Positions 5,830-27,652 of a stretch of DNA of 64,000 bases are shown one piece after another. Each line of letters opens with the position of its first letter. Position 1 is the stretch's first letter. The notes under the pieces were generated by a model that worked only from the letters and a program-made list of their open reading frames with translations, was not told the DNA's origin and did not search any database. Source of the stretch: Verrucomicrobiota bacterium (lineage in GTDB: Bacteria; Verrucomicrobiota; Verrucomicrobiia; Limisphaerales; JADLHS01); the NCBI GenBank assembly GCA_013140495.1, contig JABFSR010000061.1, positions 17,873 to 81,872 of the forward strand, in the 5' to 3' direction. A program made the translations under genes and the position numbers.

Positions 5830-8703
<2,874 letters not shown>

Positions 8704-9166: not shown

Positions 9167-9235
9167 GTTTGAGCCAATCCACATCTTGCGATGTGTTCGA
9201 CCTCGGAAGTCTCATTTTTATCTGAGACCCGTGGT

Positions 9236-10797
<1,562 letters not shown>

Positions 10798-22855: not shown

Positions 22856-23785
22856 TCATCCCCACACCTCCGACTTCCTCAATTGCTTCAGCAGCAAATC
22901 TTGAAGGTCCATGTTCGACGGGGCCATGAAGAAGTTGATGCCACGTTTTGTGGTGAACTCGCGGAGGCGCTGGATGAAATTCTGCACGGTCTGCTGATAT
23001 GCCTTCATCCGGTAGCGACCAAACGTGACTTCCTGCAAACCGCCGCTCTCGGAATCCACGAGGCGTAGATCGCCGAAGGTGGTGGGCGCGAGTTCTTCGG
23101 GCGCGAGAATCTGGACGACGTTTACTTGAAAGCCGCGCCCAACGAGCGCGGTGAGGCCGGACTCGTAGCCGGCGGGATCGAGAAAATCACTCAGCACGAT
23201 GGCGAGACCGGTGTGGCGGGCTTCCAATGCACCACGGCGCAAGGCTTCGTTGAAATCTGCGCCGCCGGCAGCAGTCAGGGCGTTGAGGTTTTGGAAGAAC
23301 TGCATCGAGGATTTTTTGCCGCGCACGCTGCGCAAGGCGCCGCGCGCGGCAAGTTCTTCGGAAGTAAGCGCGCCGGCTTGTCCGCTTTGCGTTCCGTGTT
23401 CCGTGTTCGGAAACGGCACGACGCTCACGCGATCAAATCCGCACAGTGCCACGTAGCCTATGGCGGCGGCGACCTGGCGGGCGAAATCGAATTTGCGTGG
23501 TTCGCCGAAGGTCATGGACTCGCTGGCATCGAGAAAAATGCGCACGGGCAGTTCGCGCTCCTCCTCGTAGAGCTTGAGAAAAAGTTTGTCGAGGCGACCG
23601 AAGAGATTCCAATCGAGGTAGCGGAAATCGTCGCCGGGGACGTAGCTGCGGTGGTCGGCAAACTCGACGGATTGCCCGCGCGCGCGACTGCGGCGCTCGC
23701 CCTTGGCGCTGCTCTTGGCACGCCGCGCGGCGAGCAATTGGAATTGTTCGAGGCGGCGCAGGAGTTCGGGGGTGAGCAAAGACAT
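22856..23785 (-). CDS. DUF58 domain protein (MoxR-operon partner)
   Basis: Track ORF. GERRSRARGQSVEFADHRSYVPGDDFRYLDWN... is the DUF58 signature as I recall it. Confidence 0.9.
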   Translation of the reverse strand: MSLLTPELLRRLEQFQLLAARRAKSSAKGERRSRARGQSVEFADHRSYVPGDDFRYLDWNLFGRLDKLFLKLYEEERELPVRIFLDASESMTFGEPRKFDFARQVAAAIGYVALCGFDRVSVVPFPNTEHGTQSGQAGALTSEELAARGALRSVRGKKSSMQFFQNLNALTAAGGADFNEALRRGALEARHTGLAIVLSDFLDPAGYESGLTALVGRGFQVNVVQILAPEELAPTTFGDLRLVDSESGGLQEVTFGRYRMKAYQQTVQNFIQRLREFTTKRGINFFMAPSNMDLQDLLLKQLRKSEVWG

Positions 23786-23789
23786 AGCG

Positions 23790-24506
23790 TCAGGTTTTTT
23801 TTGCTGCGTGGCGAAGCTGTTCCAATTCAGCTTTCAGTGGCTGCCAATAAATCCGGTCGTGCTCGCGCTCGGCGCGTTCTTCTTCGGCCAAGCCTGATTC
23901 CAGTTCACTTGTCTGGGCCGTGTTAGCGAAACGGAGCAAGAGACGTTTCACCTCAACCTCGCGCGAGAGTTCGGGCGCGGCTTGCGAGACTTCGCGAAGC
24001 AATTCTGGCGTGCGCATTTCCAACAGCCAGAAGCGCTGCCGTTCCGGCGTGGGCGCGGCGCGATGTTGCAGATAGTGCGCTTCAACGAGCCGTTGCAGCA
24101 TCGGCCAGTCTTTGCTGCGCTGGGTTTTCTTGGCTTGCACGAGGTCAGGCAGCGAGAGCAATTCGTAAGTCGTGCCGTCGTTGTCACTGAGTGTGGTGCG
24201 ACGTTCCCAAAGTGCGGGGAATGGGTCAACGCCGCGCAGTTTCGACATCAGGTCCACGCGCATATCGGCGGCGGCGGGATGATGACAACGGAAATGGATA
24301 GCGTGGCCGCGTTCGAGATATTCGGCGGCGAAGGGCGGAACGGCGATGCACTCGGCTTGAAGTTCCTGAAGCGCGGCGGAGAGGCGCTGGAGATTTTCCC
24401 CGTCGGCGAGGATGAGGAGGTCGGTGTCGCGGCTAAACTCCGCTGCGCCGTAGAACACGCAGGCCTGGCCGCCCATCAGCAGGGCACGGACCTGGCGCGC
24501 TGCCAT
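23790..24506 (-). CDS. nucleotidyltransferase-fold protein (minimal NTase / AbiEii-like), tentative
   Basis: Track ORF 23790..24542, with ATG 24506 preferred as the start (MAARQVRALLMGGQ...). GGQACVFYGAAEFSRDTDLLI fits the G[GS]-x(n)-D-x-D NTase motif. The C-terminal half is helical. Confidence 0.5.
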   Translation of the reverse strand: MAARQVRALLMGGQACVFYGAAEFSRDTDLLILADGENLQRLSAALQELQAECIAVPPFAAEYLERGHAIHFRCHHPAAADMRVDLMSKLRGVDPFPALWERRTTLSDNDGTTYELLSLPDLVQAKKTQRSKDWPMLQRLVEAHYLQHRAAPTPERQRFWLLEMRTPELLREVSQAAPELSREVEVKRLLLRFANTAQTSELESGLAEEERAEREHDRIYWQPLKAELEQLRHAAKKT

Positions 24507-24663
24507 CGTAGAAAGGACTTTCCGAATCCGGCTCGGGATCAAGCGAACCTCCTATGGACAGAAAGTGCGCCCACAACTCGCCGCTGGCGTGCCAGCGTTC
24601 GAGCGGGGTCATGGCATACCACTCGGCCCATTCGCCGCCCACGATGTCTTCCGGCTGAACCAT
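24433..24663 (-). CDS. small hypothetical protein upstream of and overlapping the NTase-fold gene
   Basis: Part of track ORF 24433..24741, starting from the internal ATG (MVQPEDIVGGEWAEWYAMTPLERWHASGELWAHFLSIGGSLDPEPDSESPF...). Its last 70-110 nt overlap the NTase ORF in another frame, so the end, or the gene's reality, is uncertain. Confidence 0.3.
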   Translation of the reverse strand: MVQPEDIVGGEWAEWYAMTPLERWHASGELWAHFLSIGGSLDPEPDSESPFYDGSAPGPCPADGRPGLRVLRRSGV

Positions 24664-24724
24664 GCGGAACGATTGTGCAGAAGCGGCGGAAGTGCAAGTG
24701 AACATTCCGTGTGGCGCAGGATGA

Positions 24725-24850
24725 AAAACGCAAAGACGCAAAGGGGCAAAGACGCAAAGTCAGAGGAATGGATGTCAGGGGAATGGGGAGGCAGAATTCT
24801 TCCGGCTTGGTCTTCATTCCTCTGACAATCATTCCCCTGACTTGATTCCC
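24725..24850. repeat. composite REP-like element
   Basis: aaaacgcaaagacgcaaaggggcaaagacgcaaag is followed by an inverted pair of 12-mers: gtcagaggaatg / gtcaggggaatg (24759-24785) against cattcctctgac / cattcccctgac (24815-24841). Confidence 0.85.
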
Positions 24851-24885
24851 TGCTGGATGGTTGGTTGAAACAAAATTTGTGTGAC

Positions 24886-25080
24886 GCTCGCCCTCACCCA
24901 GGCCCTCTCCCCCGGGGAGAGGGAATCGCGAGCGGACGCGTTGGGATGATTCGGAAGTTGGATTGCCTGTCGCTGCTGGTTGGTAGCTCGCGGGAGAAAA
25001 CTGCCGAAGGACGGACGGCTGGCGCTGGCTCAACACGCGGCGAAGGATTCTCCCTCGCCGGGTGGAGAGGGTGGGCGTGG
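24886..25080. repeat. MITE-like unit bounded by inverted copies of a CCCTCTCC..GGAGAGGGAATC motif
   Basis: The left copy ccctctcccccggggagagggaatc (24903 onwards) is itself a hairpin. The right copy gattctccctcgccgggtggagaggg (25046 onwards) is in the opposite orientation. Track ORF 24539..25108 is built from these repeats. Confidence 0.7.
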
Positions 25081-25109
25081 CAATAAATGTTTTGTGAGCT
25101 ATACGCATT

Positions 25110-25832
25110 TCACGGAGAGAGAATCATTGTGGGCGCAGTGTGCAGAAAGGTGTTTAGCCGAGCTTGGTGCTGGTGAAGAAATCCCACGATCCCTGCGTGA
25201 CTTCCAGCGTCGAGTAATGGCGGTTCATGGCCGGTTGTGTCCACTAAACCAGCCAGCGGTGAAAGCCGATCCCGGACAAATTCAAAAGTTGTCAGGGTTG
25301 GTGCTACATCAGATGGAAGGGCATACCTAATCACAACGATCAATTTGACCCGGTTGCACAACCCAAGCACTGAAAGCATGTGCTCAGGACTTTGTGTCTT
25401 GATTACCTCTCCAAGAATTCTTTTCTCATTCTGATTTAGGTGCCTTGCAAACTTCGTAGGGAAGGGATGGACATCTACGTGTGCGGCATTCGTTTGATAG
25501 GAACAACCAAGTGCTGCCAATCCTTGCTCACATACGTCAAACCATTGATGTCGTCGAGTTCTTGGTGAGTCAAAATAGCTAAGTAAGCGATTCGTCAACC
25601 CCACCGCGGTCAGCGAGCCTGATCCGCAACCAATCGGCCATCGTCTTTCAGGAACAAATTCTGGGTGAGCAGGATTAAGCGCAAGCGTGACAACTTCTGC
25701 GCGGCGTATATCGCCAAAGAAAGGAATTGGGTAGAGAGTGTTGTTGTCAGGGAAAAGACTTGGGTGAGCAAGTTGCAGTTCACGAAATGCAGCCATCTCT
25801 TTATCAACCAAAGCCACGATTGGGTTTGGCAT
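25110..25832 (-). CDS. hypothetical protein, possibly uracil-DNA-glycosylase-superfamily fold
   Basis: Track ORF of 240 aa. FFGDIRRAEVVTLALNPAHPE resembles UDG motif A (hhG-x-NP-[GA]), and AHVDVHPFPTKF resembles motif B (HPSP-type). It is more AT-rich than its neighbours. The fold call is tentative. Confidence 0.5.
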   Translation of the reverse strand: MPNPIVALVDKEMAAFRELQLAHPSLFPDNNTLYPIPFFGDIRRAEVVTLALNPAHPEFVPERRWPIGCGSGSLTAVGLTNRLLSYFDSPRTRRHQWFDVCEQGLAALGCSYQTNAAHVDVHPFPTKFARHLNQNEKRILGEVIKTQSPEHMLSVLGLCNRVKLIVVIRYALPSDVAPTLTTFEFVRDRLSPLAGLVDTTGHEPPLLDAGSHAGIVGFLHQHQARLNTFLHTAPTMILSP

Positions 25833-26167
25833 CAGAGTTCCTCCCTGATTTGTCGAAGTGCTTCCACAGTCTGTTTCTGAATTTGTTCCCAGTGATCTTC
25901 CGGCTTTCTCACGATCATTTTTCTGAGGACAAGGCTTTGTGGGTCGTCGTCAATTGCGAGGTCAGGTTTTCCTGCGAAGCCCTCAAAGAACTTTTCCAGC
26001 TTATGTCGGGCGGCGACGGACTTCGCGTATTCAGCGCCAGCGGCGGACCAGAGGGTTAATTCACATGGAACTTCACGGAGTTTTGTCAGAGCTTCAATTG
26101 CTCCGGGCAGGAGTTCGCCTTGCTCATCAATGAGCGTCAAATCCACGTCTATGCAAACATTCAACAT
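25832..26167 (-). CDS. minimal (capless) HAD-superfamily phosphatase-like protein
   Basis: Track ORF of 111 aa. Motif I is DVDLT, motif II is TLWSAAG, and motifs III/IV are GKPDLAIDDD. Its stop overlaps the next start by 1 nt (TGATG). Confidence 0.6.
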   Translation of the reverse strand: MLNVCIDVDLTLIDEQGELLPGAIEALTKLREVPCELTLWSAAGAEYAKSVAARHKLEKFFEGFAGKPDLAIDDDPQSLVLRKMIVRKPEDHWEQIQKQTVEALRQIREEL

Positions 26168-26200
26168 TCCCCTGCGCCTTTGCCTCTTAGCGTCTTTGCG

Positions 26201-27202
26201 TTAAACCCCGACCGCCTCCGCGCTCACCGGCACGTCTTTCAAAATCTGCTCGATGATGTGGTCAGTGGTGATGCCTTCGGCTTCGGCTTCGAAGTTGGGG
26301 ATGAGGCGGTGGCGCAACGCGGGGAGCGCGGCGGATTGGATGTCCTCGAAGCTGACGTTGAAGCGGCCCTGCGCCAGCGCGCGGACTTTGCCGGCGAGGA
26401 TGAGCGTTTGCGCGCCACGCGGGCTGCTGCCGAAACGCAGATACTGGTTCGCAATCGGCGCGGCGGTGTCGGTCTTGGGATGCGTGGCGAGCACGAGGCG
26501 CACAGCGTAATCCTTCACGTGCGATGCGACGGGGACTTCGCGCACAAGTTTCATGAGTTCGCTGAGGGCTTCGCGGGTCAAAACTTTGTTCACCTCGATC
26601 TTTGTGCCGGTGGTGGTGCGATTGATGACTTCGGTCAATTCGTCCGCGTTCGGATAGCCAACGATGATCTTGAAGAAGAAACGATCCAGTTGCGCTTCGG
26701 GCAGCGGATAGGTGCCTTCCTGATCAATCGGGTTCTGCGTGGCCATGACGAAGAAGGGTTCGCCAAGTTTGCGGAGTTCGCCGCCGGCGGTGACTTGTTT
26801 CTCCTGCATGGCTTCGAGCATGGCGGACTGGGTCTTGGGCGTGGCGCGATTGATTTCGTCGGCGAGAATCAGGTGCGCAAAGATCGGGCCGCGTTGGAAC
26901 TCAAAAGCACGTTTGCCCGCGTCGGTGTCCATGACGAGGTTTGTGCCGAGGATGTCGGCGGGCATGAGGTCGGGCGTGAACTGGATGCGATTGAACGGCA
27001 TGTCGAGCACCTCGCCGAGCGTGCGGATGAGGAGCGTTTTGCCGAGGCCAGGTACGCCTTCGAGCAACACGTGTCCGCCGCCGAACAGCGCGATGAGGGT
27101 GCTCTCGACAATGGCGGTGTGGCCGACGATGACTTTGCCGATCTCGGCCTGGAGCGCGGCGTAGGTGTCGCGGAAGGATTGGATTTGGGATTCGGTGCTC
27201 AT
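26201..27202 (-). CDS. moxR: MoxR-family AAA+ ATPase
   Basis: Track ORF. HVLLEGVPGLGKTLL (Walker A), ILADEINRATPKTQSAMLEAMQE (Walker B and sensor region), RFGSSPRG. Confidence 0.95.
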   Translation of the reverse strand: MSTESQIQSFRDTYAALQAEIGKVIVGHTAIVESTLIALFGGGHVLLEGVPGLGKTLLIRTLGEVLDMPFNRIQFTPDLMPADILGTNLVMDTDAGKRAFEFQRGPIFAHLILADEINRATPKTQSAMLEAMQEKQVTAGGELRKLGEPFFVMATQNPIDQEGTYPLPEAQLDRFFFKIIVGYPNADELTEVINRTTTGTKIEVNKVLTREALSELMKLVREVPVASHVKDYAVRLVLATHPKTDTAAPIANQYLRFGSSPRGAQTLILAGKVRALAQGRFNVSFEDIQSAALPALRHRLIPNFEAEAEGITTDHIIEQILKDVPVSAEAVGV

Positions 27203-27256: not shown

Positions 27257-27652
27257 TTACACGGGTTTTCGGACGCGGGAGTTGCTTGGGTATTTTTCCA
27301 GATAACTGATGAATTTGGCGATGCGGCGCGAAAGTGAAAGGGCGGCATCGCGCAGGGCGGTGAATTCCTTTTCCGTCACATATTCCTGATCCAGGGCGAC
27401 ATAAAGTTGCGAGCGGACTTCGCCAGTTGAGCCTTTGGCAATGCTCAGGAACTGGATGAACTCTTTGCGGTAACCGCGCTCGAATCCTTCGGCAATGTTC
27501 GACATCGTCGAGGTTGCAGCCCGGCGGATTTGGTCGCGCAGGCCAAAATCGCGATAGAACGCACGCTGTTTGGATACGGTGTAAATGTCTTTGACCAACG
27601 CCCGCGCGTCCTGCCAGACGTGCAGATCTTCAAATTGTTGTGCCGTTGCCAT
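27257..27652 (-). CDS. four-helix-bundle protein ('23S rRNA intervening-sequence protein' family)
   Basis: Track ORF. FEDLHVWQDARALVKDIY...QIRRAATSTMSNIAEGFERGYRKEFIQFLSIAKGSTGEVRSQL matches my recollection of the family pattern. Confidence 0.85.
   Translation of the reverse strand: MATAQQFEDLHVWQDARALVKDIYTVSKQRAFYRDFGLRDQIRRAATSTMSNIAEGFERGYRKEFIQFLSIAKGSTGEVRSQLYVALDQEYVTEKEFTALRDAALSLSRRIAKFISYLEKYPSNSRVRKPV

What the first reader, a model, noticed from the sequence alone, without database searches (positions are those of the whole stretch)
25110..26167. Translationally coupled mini-HAD phosphatase plus UDG-like protein pair
The 111-aa protein keeps all four HAD motifs (DVDLT, TLWSAAG, GKPD, IDDD) but has no cap domain.

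The next ORF overlaps its stop (TGATG). It carries FFGDIRRAEVVTLALNPAHPE and HVDVHPFPTKF. In order and spacing these resemble motif A (hhGxNP[GA]) and motif B (HPSP-type) of the uracil-DNA glycosylase superfamily.

A glycosylase-fold protein coupled to a tiny phosphatase is not a pairing I recognise. Possible roles are modified-base DNA surveillance or defence, or nucleotide-pool sanitation. Glycosylase-fold proteins acting against phage DNA have been reported, but I cannot link this ORF to them from sequence alone.
Basis: inference. Interest (0 to 1): 0.6.

Follow-up and report, generated by a model that had tools for sequence, protein, structure and literature searches.

The report
Phage-defence-type DNA glycosylase with mini-phosphatase partner
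Two overlapping genes in a Verrucomicrobia genome encode a very small phosphatase and an unannotated enzyme of the uracil-DNA-glycosylase fold that resembles recently found anti-phage "Brig" glycosylases; the two are fused into one protein in other bacteria, and the glycosylase differs sharply between near-identical strains, so this is probably a new two-enzyme variant of glycosylase-based phage defence.

Summary
On the minus strand, a 111-aa capless HAD phosphatase (25832-26167) overlaps by TGATG a 240-aa protein (25110-25832).

The 240-aa protein matches no Pfam, PADLOC or PHROG model. Its AlphaFold model (pLDDT 93.7) finds only uracil-DNA-glycosylase (UDG) superfamily structures as top hits. 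Its invariant residues (FFG, NP[S/A]xxE, WF, HxD) follow the order of the catalytic-pocket residues published for the anti-phage glycosylase Brig3. A profile comparison with the Brig1 family is weakly positive.

HVDVHP lies on the second core strand. The true motif-B and wedge-loop region is present in long relatives (FFCSxSPS) and deleted here.

The HAD link is real. The gene sits directly upstream, with start/stop overlap, in about 18 distinct loci. It is fused N-terminally in at least 10 protein clusters, all of the loop-less form.

In strains with 98-99% identical flanking MoxR, the glycosylase is only 34-44% identical, while HAD is 77-99%. GC drops to 0.48 against 0.60 in the flanks. Neighbours include toxin-antitoxin genes, a prophage integrase and a recombinase.

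Best reading: a new HAD-assisted variant of Brig-type defence glycosylases. The phosphatase's substrate is unknown.

The parts
25832..26167 (-). Mini-HAD phosphatase, 111 aa, capless (C0). Motif I is D7-V-D9-L-T11, motif II is LWS41, motif III is K67-P-D, motif IV is D73-D74-D75. A long C-terminal helix (93-110) becomes the linker in fused homologues.
   Evidence: catalytic residues invariant; pLDDT 93.2; Foldseek: baculovirus 38K, BT_0820/2obb, MDP-1, Scp, HisB-N, T4 PNKP, phage AfhF; profile against PDB: 38K E=2.8e-5, 2obb E=3e-4.
25110..25832 (-). UDG-fold, Brig-like putative DNA glycosylase, 240 aa, short form. The extended motif A is YPIPFFGD...VVTLALN53-P54-A-H-P-E58. Pocket residues are H95-x-W97-F98 and H118-x-D120. 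It lacks the hairpin and SPS loop of long-form relatives.
   Evidence: pLDDT 93.7; hhalign against the Brig1 family: E 2-4e-4, probability 36-44%; published Brig3 pocket residues.
25830..25845 (-). Translational-coupling junction: the GGGAGGA ribosome-binding site (25839-25845) lies inside the HAD 3' end, followed by the TGATG stop/start overlap (25830-25834).
   Evidence: sequence; the same junction in L003, L006, L012, L015, L048; TAATG in L034; ATGA overlap in L008, L014, L016.
26173..26202 (.). Upstream arm of a 30-nt inverted repeat built from the 8-nt unit GCAAAGAC. It lies between the MoxR stop codon and the HAD start codon.
   Evidence: 90% complementary to 24727-24756; the same element lies after MoxR and before DUF58 in L003: 5631-5663 and 7224-7256.
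24727..24756 (.). Downstream arm of the inverted repeat. The two arms bracket a 1.48-kb cassette made of the HAD gene, the glycosylase gene and about 350 nt of non-coding DNA.
24757..25109 (.). Non-coding tail of the cassette, containing GC-rich hairpin repeats. Homology to related strains resumes here after the divergent part of the glycosylase gene.
   Evidence: window versus L012: homology is lost between 25634 and 25079 and resumes at 25079-24738.

Best explanation
This is a two-enzyme module of the glycosylase type of phage defence.

The 240-aa protein is a base-excision enzyme of the UDG superfamily, from a previously unannotated family. Its catalytic pocket repeats the pocket described for the anti-phage glycosylases Brig1 and Brig3: an Asn-Pro loop after strand 1, a Glu five residues later, a Trp-Phe pair, and His-x-Asp on strand 2. 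It most likely flips out and excises a modified pyrimidine, possibly a 5-hydroxymethyl type, from invading DNA. The resulting abasic sites would block phage replication.

The window protein belongs to a short form that has lost the loop which, in Brig3, wedges into the duplex (N225).

Only this short form is joined to the 111-aa capless HAD phosphatase, either by translational coupling or by fusion. The two therefore very probably form one complex. Capless HADs act on large substrates or on substrates presented by a partner. The phosphatase probably acts on a phosphate carried by the DNA substrate or product. That could be a phosphate-masked base such as 5-phosphomethyl-pyrimidine, or a 3'/5' sugar-phosphate end at the excision site.

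Shown here: the fold, the conserved catalytic residues of both proteins, the coupling and fusion, the restriction of HAD to the loop-less form, and the extreme allelic divergence.

Inferred: glycosylase activity, the defence role, and above all the HAD substrate.
For: Fold: the top 33 Foldseek PDB hits are all UDG superfamily, and the BFVD hits are phage UDGs.

Active site:
- G40, P54, E58, F87, F98, H118 and D120 are invariant in 122 diverse sequences. P35, F38, F39, N53, W65, R82, Y86, H95 and W97 are at least 90% conserved.
- The Brig3 crystal-structure pocket is F31, N50-P51-S52, E55, Y97, W100-F101 and H125/D127. The N50A, E55A and W100A mutants lose defence. This family has the same residues in the same order with similar spacing.

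Sequence link to Brig1:
- NCBIfam Brig1 is the only non-HAD model matched repeatedly (4 of 122 members, best E 0.0046).
- BLASTP of the motif-A region gives E 0.002.
- hhalign against a 38-sequence Brig1 family alignment gives E 2.4e-4 to 3.8e-4 and probability 36-44%, collinear over 211 columns.

HAD link:
- The HAD gene is adjacent, with start/stop overlap, in about 18 distinct loci.
- There are at least 10 HAD-N-terminal fusions, all in the short form (Fisher p = 1.7e-4).
- HAD homologues at 60% identity or more whose genomic context was examined (9 of about 46 clusters) were next to this glycosylase, apart from one degraded locus (L050).

Precedent: the brig3-bapA operon has two overlapping genes, in which the accessory hydrolase unmasks the glycosylase's substrate.

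Defence-like evolution:
- L012: MoxR 99%, HAD 99%, glycosylase 44%. L048: MoxR 98%, BatA 93%, glycosylase 34%.
- Identity falls from 100% to 82% to 6-20% along the HAD-glycosylase pair.
- GC is 0.47-0.50 against about 0.60 in the flanks.

Context and fusions:
- The pair lies inside a prophage next to the integrase and JetD (L008).
- A relative lies next to a serine recombinase (L019).
- Neighbours include ParDE, PIN, Phd-PIN, a Y1 transposase and an AbiEii-like gene.
- Long-form relatives are fused to a DCD (modified-base reader) domain and to DUF1643.
Against: - No biochemical or phage-challenge data exist for any member of this family.
- The fold match is marginal in numbers (Foldseek E about 4e-3, TM 0.4-0.55). 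No sequence profile reaches significance against PDB UDGs. The Pfam UDG model does not match.
- The Brig1 model scores 11 bits against a cut-off of 230.
- PADLOC finds nothing. The family is absent from isolate phages, plasmids and IMG/VR.
- Many loci sit among housekeeping genes rather than in classical defence islands.
- The wedge loop that is essential in Brig3 (N225A loses defence) is missing here.
- About half of family loci, including some short-form loci (L001, L010, L017, L018, L031), have no HAD, so the phosphatase is not obligatory.
- The Brig3 sequence itself could not be obtained. The residue match rests on published residue numbers only.
Confidence: 0.5

Rival explanations
1. Nucleotide-pool enzyme pair. 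The loop-less UDG-fold protein binds free modified deoxynucleotides, such as hydroxymethyl-dUMP or -dCMP, rather than DNA, and cleaves the N-glycosidic bond as DNPH1 does. The HAD removes the 5'-phosphate, either from the nucleotide or from the deoxyribose-5-phosphate product. The glycosylase domain would act as the missing HAD cap. The outcome could be pool sanitation, or starving a phage of its modified precursor.
For: - The duplex-wedging loop is deleted exactly in the HAD-linked form.
- Capless HADs need a partner to define small-molecule specificity. Structural neighbours include sugar-bisphosphate phosphatases (HisB-N, GmhB, phage AfhF).
- HAD is far more conserved than its partner, as expected if it acts on an invariant sugar-phosphate.
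Against: - To my knowledge, no UDG-superfamily member acts on free nucleotides.
- Long-form relatives keep the DNA-type loop and are fused to nucleic-acid reader domains.
- The closest HAD relatives by sequence are the macromolecule-acting 38K and BT_0820.
- HAD-less short forms exist.
Confidence: 0.15
2. Housekeeping base-excision repair mini-pathway. A lineage-specific repair glycosylase is paired with a 3'-phosphatase that cleans the ends left after elimination at the abasic site, in the way NEIL glycosylases work with the HAD domain of PNKP.
For: - The pair keeps a stable position inside a conserved operon (MoxR-pair-DUF58) across genomes with 75-99% MoxR identity.
- No promoter-like site was found, which suggests co-transcription with housekeeping genes.
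- T4 PNKP is among the structural neighbours.
Against: - The glycosylase is 34-44% identical between strains whose flanking genes are 98-99% identical, with mosaic breakpoints inside the gene. Repair enzymes do not behave like this.
- GC is low.
- The family is rare: 46 clusters among 5.8 billion sequences.
- The pair also occurs in a prophage.
- The pair, or the HAD alone, is missing in sister genomes (L001, L010, L018).
Confidence: 0.12
3. The HAD is a protein phosphatase, like baculovirus 38K, which dephosphorylates a DNA-binding core protein. It would regulate the glycosylase, or act on a phage or host DNA-bound phosphoprotein, rather than touching DNA.
For: The best sequence and structure matches are 38K (profile E = 2.8e-5; Foldseek rank 1-2). 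They are followed by MDP-1 and the Scp CTD phosphatases, which are all protein phosphatases.
Against: - Similarity is limited to the generic HAD core (59 aligned residues).
- No kinase is linked to the locus.
- A fusion to a DNA enzyme points more simply to a shared nucleic-acid substrate.
Confidence: 0.08
4. Selfish toxin-antitoxin-like addiction module, with a DNA-damaging glycosylase as toxin and the small upstream HAD as enzymatic antitoxin.
For: - The architecture is a small upstream gene overlapping a larger downstream gene.
- The pair lies in a hotspot shared with ParDE, PIN, Phd-PIN and an AbiEii-like gene.
- One relative is fused to a Phd/YefM-like domain.
Against: - Many family members, including short forms, occur with no HAD, so the glycosylase is not intrinsically lethal.
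- A covalent fusion of toxin and antitoxin in at least 10 clusters would be unusual.
- The supposed antitoxin is much more conserved than the supposed toxin.
Confidence: 0.05

Closest known systems
Brig3-BapA (5hmC DNA glycosylase plus accessory glucosyl hydrolase; bioRxiv 10.64898/2026.02.25.707755)
   Same: - A two-gene overlapping operon in which a UDG-superfamily defence glycosylase is paired with a small accessory hydrolase.
- The published Brig3 pocket residues (F31, N50-P51-S52, E55, W100-F101, H125-x-D127) recur here in the same order as F38/39, N53-P54-A/S55, E58, W97-F98 and H118-x-D120.
- Long-form relatives have a loop carrying a conserved Asn (SPSxxN) where Brig3 has the wedge residue N225.
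   Different: - The partner is a HAD phosphatase encoded upstream, not an ASCH-like glucosidase encoded downstream.
- The window protein lacks the N225-type wedge loop.
- The spacings differ: N to W is 39-48 residues against 50, and W to H is 21 against 25.
Brig1 (alpha-glucosyl-hmC DNA glycosylase; PMC11078745; NCBIfam NF047634)
   Same: - UDG-superfamily fold.
- The extended motif A is alike: YPDPWVGDL...VVLGLNPG in Brig1 against YPIPFFGDI...VVTLALNPA here.
- Brig1 N-F-E-L-Y-P-W-H-S corresponds to H-V-D-V-H-P-F-P-T.
- hhalign gives E 2.4e-4 with a collinear alignment.
   Different: - Identity is below 20%, and the match scores 11 bits against a model cut-off of 230.
- The two homologue sets do not overlap.
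- Brig1 works as a single gene with no HAD.
Family 2/3 UDGs (E. coli Mug, TDG, SMUG1)
   Same: - The catalytic Asn-Pro lies in the loop after strand 1 (GINPG or GMNPG against LNPA or VNPS); hhalign places the two motifs on each other.
- SMUG1 and TDG are among the Foldseek hits.
- SMUG1 excises 5-hydroxymethyluracil (general knowledge).
   Different: - There is no significant sequence similarity (probability 0.3%).
- Motif B is absent in the window protein.
- These are conserved repair enzymes, not hypervariable accessory genes.
Capless (C0) HAD phosphatases: baculovirus 38K, BT_0820 family (PDB 2obb), MDP-1, T4/mammalian PNKP phosphatase domain
   Same: - All four HAD motifs are present and there is no cap.
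- The LWS motif II is shared with 38K and BT_0820.
- BT_0820 and phage AfhF are similarly small, at about 120-140 aa.
   Different: - At 111 aa the core ends right after motif IV, and a long helix replaces the last strands.
- It is always tied to a UDG-fold partner.
- Its substrate is unknown.

Membership tests
HAD (haloacid dehalogenase-like) phosphatase superfamily | Motif I DxDx[TV] at the end of strand 1, providing the nucleophile and the acid/base Asp | tested here: met
   D7-V-D9-L-T11; D7, D9 and T11 are invariant in 27 sequences.
HAD (haloacid dehalogenase-like) phosphatase superfamily | Motif II Ser/Thr, motif III Lys and motif IV acidic pair, in that order | tested here: met
   S41 (LWS), K67 (KPD) and D73-D74 are all invariant.
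HAD (haloacid dehalogenase-like) phosphatase superfamily | Rossmannoid fold recognised by structure and profile comparison | tested here: met
   Foldseek top hits are all HADs, with probabilities up to 1.00. The profile against PDB gives 38K E = 2.8e-5 and 2obb E = 3e-4. Pfam and NCBIfam HAD models match only below their cut-offs.
HAD (haloacid dehalogenase-like) phosphatase superfamily | Cap class C0 (no cap insert) | tested here: met
   The model's secondary structure shows only a short flap between residues 9 and 19 and no insert between motifs II and III; the whole protein is 111 aa.
HAD (haloacid dehalogenase-like) phosphatase superfamily | Mg-dependent phosphomonoesterase activity | not testable with these tools
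   This needs an enzyme assay.
Uracil-DNA glycosylase (UDG) superfamily | Three-layer alpha/beta fold with a central parallel four-stranded sheet | tested here: met
Uracil-DNA glycosylase (UDG) superfamily | Motif A: catalytic loop directly after strand 1 (GQDPY, GINPG, GEAPG) | tested here: met
   Strand 47-51 is followed by L-N53-P54-A. P54 is invariant and N53 is at least 90% conserved. hhalign aligns this segment to Mug GINPG and Brig1 GLNPG.
Uracil-DNA glycosylase (UDG) superfamily | Motif B (HPSPLS, NPSGLS) with the DNA-intercalating loop after the last core strand | tested here: not met
It is deleted in the window protein and in all short-form members. Long-form relatives have lPvFFCSxSPS plus a hairpin at this position.
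Uracil-DNA glycosylase (UDG) superfamily | Significant match to a curated UDG sequence model (Pfam PF03167 or relatives) | tested here: not met
   No Pfam hit for the window protein or for 43 or 28 family members. No PDB UDG was found by profile search.
Brig-type anti-phage DNA glycosylases (Brig1/Brig3) | Membership of the curated Brig1 model (NF047634, cut-off 230 bits) | tested here: not met
   11.4 bits, E = 0.16, residues 32-57 only; 4 of 122 relatives match, best E 0.0046.
Brig-type anti-phage DNA glycosylases (Brig1/Brig3) | Profile-level homology to the Brig1 family | tested here: inconclusive
   hhalign gives E 3.8e-4 and probability 36% over 26 columns. With cleaned alignments it gives E 2.4e-4 and probability 44% over 211 collinear columns.
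Brig-type anti-phage DNA glycosylases (Brig1/Brig3) | Brig3 pocket residues (N50, E55, W100, H125/D127) that are essential for defence | tested here: inconclusive
   The same residues occur in the same order and are invariant or nearly so: N53, E58, W97, H118/D120. The comparison uses published residue numbers, not an alignment or a superposition.
Brig-type anti-phage DNA glycosylases (Brig1/Brig3) | Intercalating Asn loop (Brig3 N225) | tested here: not met
   The loop region is absent in the window protein. A candidate SPSxxN loop exists only in long-form relatives.
Brig-type anti-phage DNA glycosylases (Brig1/Brig3) | Excision of a modified base and protection against phage | not testable with these tools
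   This needs glycosylase assays and phage challenge.
Known defence systems (PADLOC) | Match to a catalogued defence-system protein model | tested here: not met
   No PADLOC hit for either protein.
Type II toxin-antitoxin module | The toxin always occurs with its cognate antitoxin | tested here: not met
   About half of the loci with enough upstream sequence lack the HAD, and at least 10 clusters are covalent fusions.

The most novel reading that the evidence does not exclude
The HAD may be the phosphate counterpart of BapA. On this reading it removes the phosphate from 5-phosphomethyl-pyrimidines in phage DNA. These are the kinase-activated intermediates (5-PmdU) through which many phages build thymidine hypermodifications (PMC5889632, PMC8989533, PMC11472151). 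Removing the phosphate would regenerate the 5-hydroxymethyl base. The Brig3-like pocket, with its invariant Glu at the position that reads the CH2OH group in Brig3, would then excise that base. The module would therefore intercept a phage DNA-modification pathway at its activated intermediate. It would both block the protective modification and turn the site into an abasic lesion. This would be the first phosphatase shown to act on a DNA nucleobase adduct.
Probability: 0.12. Interest if true: 0.85.

Novelty: new variant of a known kind. Interest (0 to 1): 0.62.

Why it matters
Glycosylase-based phage defence was first described only in 2024, with three UDG-fold enzymes (Brig1-3) and the separate Dag family characterised so far.

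This locus points to a separate and entirely unannotated UDG-fold family. It has about 865 clusters at 50% identity, every one of the ten looked up is labelled hypothetical, and none of the roughly 70 members scanned matches a Pfam UDG model. The catalytic pocket is Brig-like.

Within that family there is a sub-form that has lost the DNA wedge loop and has recruited a minimal HAD phosphatase, by translational coupling or by fusion.

If the module is a defence system, it adds a new accessory chemistry, dephosphorylation, to base-excision immunity. It also supplies a natural set of highly divergent alleles at one chromosomal site for studying specificity or inhibitor escape.

If instead it acts on nucleotides, it would be the first UDG-fold enzyme with a non-DNA substrate.

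Either way, the fusions make the phosphatase-glycosylase link directly testable.

Tried and rejected
- Direct family searches on the 240-aa protein gave nothing: Pfam, PADLOC, PHROGs and PDB sequence searches with the single protein and two profiles.
- tblastn of the window protein and of a long-form member (P0120) against isolate phages and plasmids found no match.
- IMG/VR scans with both alignments found no relatives.
With A1 the genome scan gave only 5 loci.
- A weak Pfam DUF488-N3a hit among members could not be reproduced for P0015, and the literature search was uninformative. I dropped it.
- I considered an Fpg/Nei-like N-terminal proline nucleophile because the protein starts MPNP. I rejected it because position 2 varies (P/K/R/S/C) in the alignment.
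- Pfam scans of neighbours in L034 and L045 were uninformative, partly because my greedy ORF picking chose wrong-strand ORFs in high-GC DNA.
- Rfam and promoter/terminator scans of the region showed nothing meaningful.
- The Brig3 sequence could not be obtained, as no supplement is held.
Full report
**1. What is there**

Two ORFs lie on the minus strand. One encodes 111 aa (25832..26167) and the other 240 aa (25110..25832).
- The stop codon of the first and the start codon of the second share one base (TGATG).
- A GGGAGGA ribosome-binding site lies inside the end of the first gene.
- The pair begins 33 nt after the stop codon of a MoxR AAA+ ATPase gene (26201..27202).
- Further downstream are a DUF58 gene (22856..23785) and a BatA gene. 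In most related genomes MoxR and DUF58 are separated only by this pair.
- GC falls from about 0.60 to 0.47-0.50 across the pair.
- No promoter-like site was found, so the pair is probably read through from moxR.
- The 240-aa protein is identical to a hypothetical protein of a Verrucomicrobia MAG.

**2. The small protein is a capless HAD phosphatase**

- The residues D7, D9, T11, S41, K67, D73 and D74 are invariant in 27 homologues.
- The AlphaFold model (pLDDT 93.2) has a short flap and no cap insert. It ends soon after motif IV in a long helix.
- The Foldseek neighbours are all HADs. The leaders are baculovirus 38K, the 121-residue BT_0820 protein (2obb), MDP-1, HisB-N, the Scp CTD phosphatases, T4 PNKP and phage AfhF.
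- A profile search of PDB sequences gives 38K at E = 2.8e-5 and 2obb at E = 3e-4, with a shared LWS motif II.

**3. The 240-aa protein has the UDG fold and a Brig-like pocket**

It matches no Pfam, PADLOC or PHROG model and no PDB sequence.

Fold evidence:
- With a 43-sequence alignment, AlphaFold gives pLDDT 93.7 and pTM 0.91.
- The 33 best Foldseek PDB hits are all UDG-superfamily enzymes: BdiUNG, UdgX, families 4 and 5, SMUG1 and TDG. E-values start at 4e-3, probabilities reach 0.99, and TM-scores are 0.4-0.55.
- The viral structure library returns phage UDGs and the UDG-like domains of phage PolA.

Motif and sequence evidence:
- Strand 47-51 is followed by L-N53-P54-A, which is the position of UDG motif A.
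- hhalign places this segment on E. coli Mug GINPG. That match is statistically insignificant.
- It also places it on Brig1 GLNPG.
- I took the Brig1 sequence from the supplement of PMC11078745 and collected 54 Brig1 homologues.
- The profile-profile comparison gives E = 3.8e-4 and probability 36% over the motif-A region.
- With cleaned alignments it gives E = 2.4e-4 and probability 44% over 211 collinear columns.
- The NCBIfam Brig1 model is the only non-HAD model matched repeatedly by family members. It matches 4 of 122, with a best E of 0.0046.

Comparison with Brig3:
- The Brig3 preprint reports the pocket residues F31, N50-P51-S52, E55, Y97, W100-F101 and H125/D127, and the wedge residue N225. 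The N50A, E55A, W100A and N225A mutants lose defence.
- In the present family G40, P54, E58, F87, F98, H118 and D120 are invariant, and F38/F39, N53, H95 and W97 are at least 90% conserved, over 122 diverse sequences.
- They occur in the same order as in Brig3 with similar spacing.
- This comparison rests on published residue numbers. I could not obtain the Brig3 sequence.

**4.

- HVDVHPFPT lies on the second core strand (116-120). It corresponds to the Brig3 H125/D127 and Brig1 N145/E147 site, not to the C-terminal UDG motif B.
- An exhaustive profile search found 865 clusters at E ≤ 1e-3. All ten members looked up are labelled "hypothetical".
- These fall into two forms.
- A long form (68 of 122) carries an extra hairpin and the motif lPvFFCSxSPS, often followed by a conserved Asn. 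This sits where UDGs have motif B and where Brig3 has its wedge loop.
- A short form (54 of 122) has this region deleted. The window protein is a short form.

**5. The HAD link is real and specific**

- In loci fetched from genomes and metagenomes, the HAD gene lies immediately upstream in about 18 distinct loci. About 19 loci with enough upstream sequence lack it.
- Wherever the two genes are separate, the start and stop codons overlap.
- At least 10 clusters encode an N-terminal-HAD/C-terminal-glycosylase fusion. All of them are short form (10 of 10, against 44 of 112 non-fusions; Fisher p = 1.7e-4).
- The close HAD homologues (60% identity or more) whose contigs were examined, 9 of about 46 clusters, sit next to this glycosylase. 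The one exception is a degraded locus (L050).
- A 46%-identical HAD sits after purQ with no glycosylase.
- The phosphatase is therefore an accessory recruited by the loop-less clade. It is not obligatory: L001, L010, L017, L018 and L031 have lost it or never had it.

**6. Evolutionary behaviour**

The same operon in closely related strains carries very different glycosylase alleles:

| Locus | MoxR | Other flank | HAD | Glycosylase |
|---|---|---|---|---|
| L012 | 99% | DUF58 92% | 99% | 44% |
| L048 | 98% | BatA 93% | 77% | 34% |
| L014 | 99% | not listed | 73% | 51% |

- Along the concatenated pair, identity to L012 runs 96-100% through the HAD, 82% around motif A, and 6-20% in the C-terminal half.
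- At the DNA level, homology to L012 stops at window 25634 and resumes at 25079, just past the stop codon.
- This is allele replacement by recombination within conserved flanks.
- All alleles keep the invariant pocket residues, so they are not pseudogenes.

**7. Context**

- A 30-nt inverted repeat of the 8-nt unit GCAAAGAC brackets the pair plus its non-coding tail (26173-26202 and 24727-24756). The same element lies after MoxR and before DUF58 in L003.
- The MoxR-DUF58 gap also holds other cargo in relatives: a PIN gene with a duplicated MoxR 3' end (L001), a Y1 transposase (L006/7) and ParDE (L014).
- In the window itself, a 250-aa protein next door weakly resembles AbiEii/AbiGii nucleotidyltransferase toxins.
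- Elsewhere the pair lies inside a prophage, between the integrase and the rest of the phage and next to JetD (L008/9).
- A long-form gene lies next to a large serine recombinase in a Terriglobia genome (L019).
- Two divergent fusions both sit right after argH. The longer locus (L054) continues with a Phd-PIN pair.
- Other loci are among ordinary metabolic genes.
- Long-form relatives are fused to a DCD domain (E = 7e-13), DUF1643 (E = 1.6e-38), a Phd/YefM-like segment, GNAT and DUF4145.
- By general knowledge, not tested here, DCD belongs to the EVE/PUA-like readers of modified bases.

**8. Interpretation**

- The published operon of Brig3 with its accessory hydrolase BapA is a direct precedent. 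It has two overlapping genes, and the accessory enzyme strips glucose so that the glycosylase can excise 5hmC.
- The present pair fits the same logic with a phosphatase.
- I therefore favour a defence module directed at invading DNA with modified bases (confidence about 0.5).
- The HAD substrate is open. Because the HAD stays nearly constant while its partner diverges, it probably acts on an invariant phosphate group. Candidates are a sugar-phosphate end at the lesion or a phosphate-masked hydroxymethyl base.
- 5-phosphomethyl-dU in DNA is an established intermediate of phage thymidine hypermodification (PMC5889632, PMC8989533, PMC11472151).
- Loss of the wedge loop only in the HAD-linked form suggests one of three things. 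The HAD may replace the wedge structurally, the complex may work on single-stranded DNA, or the substrate may be a free nucleotide. The last of these is the main rival.
- The other rivals are housekeeping repair, a protein-phosphatase role for the HAD, and a toxin-antitoxin module. They are less consistent with the hypervariability, the fusions and the HAD-less members.

**9. Verdict**

- The thing is a new variant of a known kind: a UDG-fold defence-type glycosylase.
- It is new in its family, in its loop-less form, in its dedicated mini-HAD partner, and in the strong allelic diversification at a fixed chromosomal site.
- No function has been shown experimentally.

Noticed in passing
window 23790-24542 (-) and 24433-24741 (-): A 250-aa protein directly downstream of the cassette weakly resembles AbiEii/AbiGii nucleotidyltransferase toxins (PDB 8an4, E = 0.089, aligned over residues 2-155 including the GG...RDxD motif). 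A small ORF overlaps its start. Together they may form an AbiE-like toxin-antitoxin or abortive-infection pair. An 80%-identical copy lies before DUF58 in L006/L007, but none is present in L003, L012, L014 or L048.
   Followed up: partly
window 24727-24756 and 26173-26202: A 30-nt inverted repeat, 90% complementary, built from tandem 8-nt units (GCAAAGAC). It brackets the HAD-glycosylase cassette. The same element flanks the insertion in L003 (5631-5663 and 7224-7256). It may mark a cassette boundary or a recombination site. No empty site was available for comparison.
   Followed up: partly
window about 24870-24930 and 25039-25079: GC-rich hairpin repeats (CCTCTCCCCGGGGGAGAGGG type) in the non-coding tail. 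They are present in many copies and in both orientations in related loci, for example L003 at 6753-6796, 6914-6960, 7069-7126, 8231-8269 and 9173-9291. They look like REP/MITE-like elements. The Rfam 'mir-627' hit at 24753-24845 (E = 0.0013, well below the gathering score) lies in the same non-coding tail, next to the 8-nt repeat array, and probably reflects a separate hairpin there.
   Followed up: no
L001 5143-5954: In a strain with 97% identical MoxR, a PIN-domain gene and a 70-aa gene sit after MoxR. They are followed by a duplicated copy of the last 38 codons of MoxR (5841-5954), and then by the glycosylase with no HAD. This looks like an insertion with target duplication that displaced the HAD gene.
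   Followed up: partly
window 27257-27652 (-): A gene for a 23S rRNA-intervening-sequence protein (four-helix bundle, Pfam E = 1e-35) lies just upstream of MoxR. It is present in L003 and L048 but absent in L001 and L006, so it is another variable small insert in this operon.
   Followed up: no
L011 2639-3634 and L054 8001-9041: Two divergent HAD-glycosylase fusions (in different 50% clusters) both sit 12-15 nt after an argininosuccinate lyase gene. In L054 a Phd-PIN pair follows. This is a second conserved 'hitch-hiking' position behind a housekeeping gene.
   Followed up: partly
proteins P0145, P0172, P0180, P0209, P0236 (long-form relatives): Fusions of the glycosylase domain to other domains: DCD (Pfam E = 7e-13), a C-terminal DUF1643 (E = 1.6e-38), a Phd/YefM-like segment, GNAT, and DUF4145/HepT-like. 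P0138 and P0153 carry an unrecognised N-terminal domain of about 200 aa, and P0015 and P0017 carry one of about 118 aa.
   Followed up: partly
L016 (contig CAYWMD010000080.1): The contig is labelled as an uncultured Bifidobacteriaceae MAG. It carries a MoxR fragment 88% identical to the Verrucomicrobia one, and the pair itself (HAD 75%, glycosylase 57%). The contig is probably mis-binned. Here the pair lies about 3.6 kb upstream of MoxR, between Band7/NfeD genes and an epimerase gene, rather than in the MoxR-DUF58 gap.
   Followed up: no
L051-L053 (protein P0095): A 108-aa HAD, 46% identical to the window HAD, sits directly after purS-purQ and has no glycosylase downstream. It is a possible free-standing relative of this mini-HAD clade, of unknown role.
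   Followed up: no
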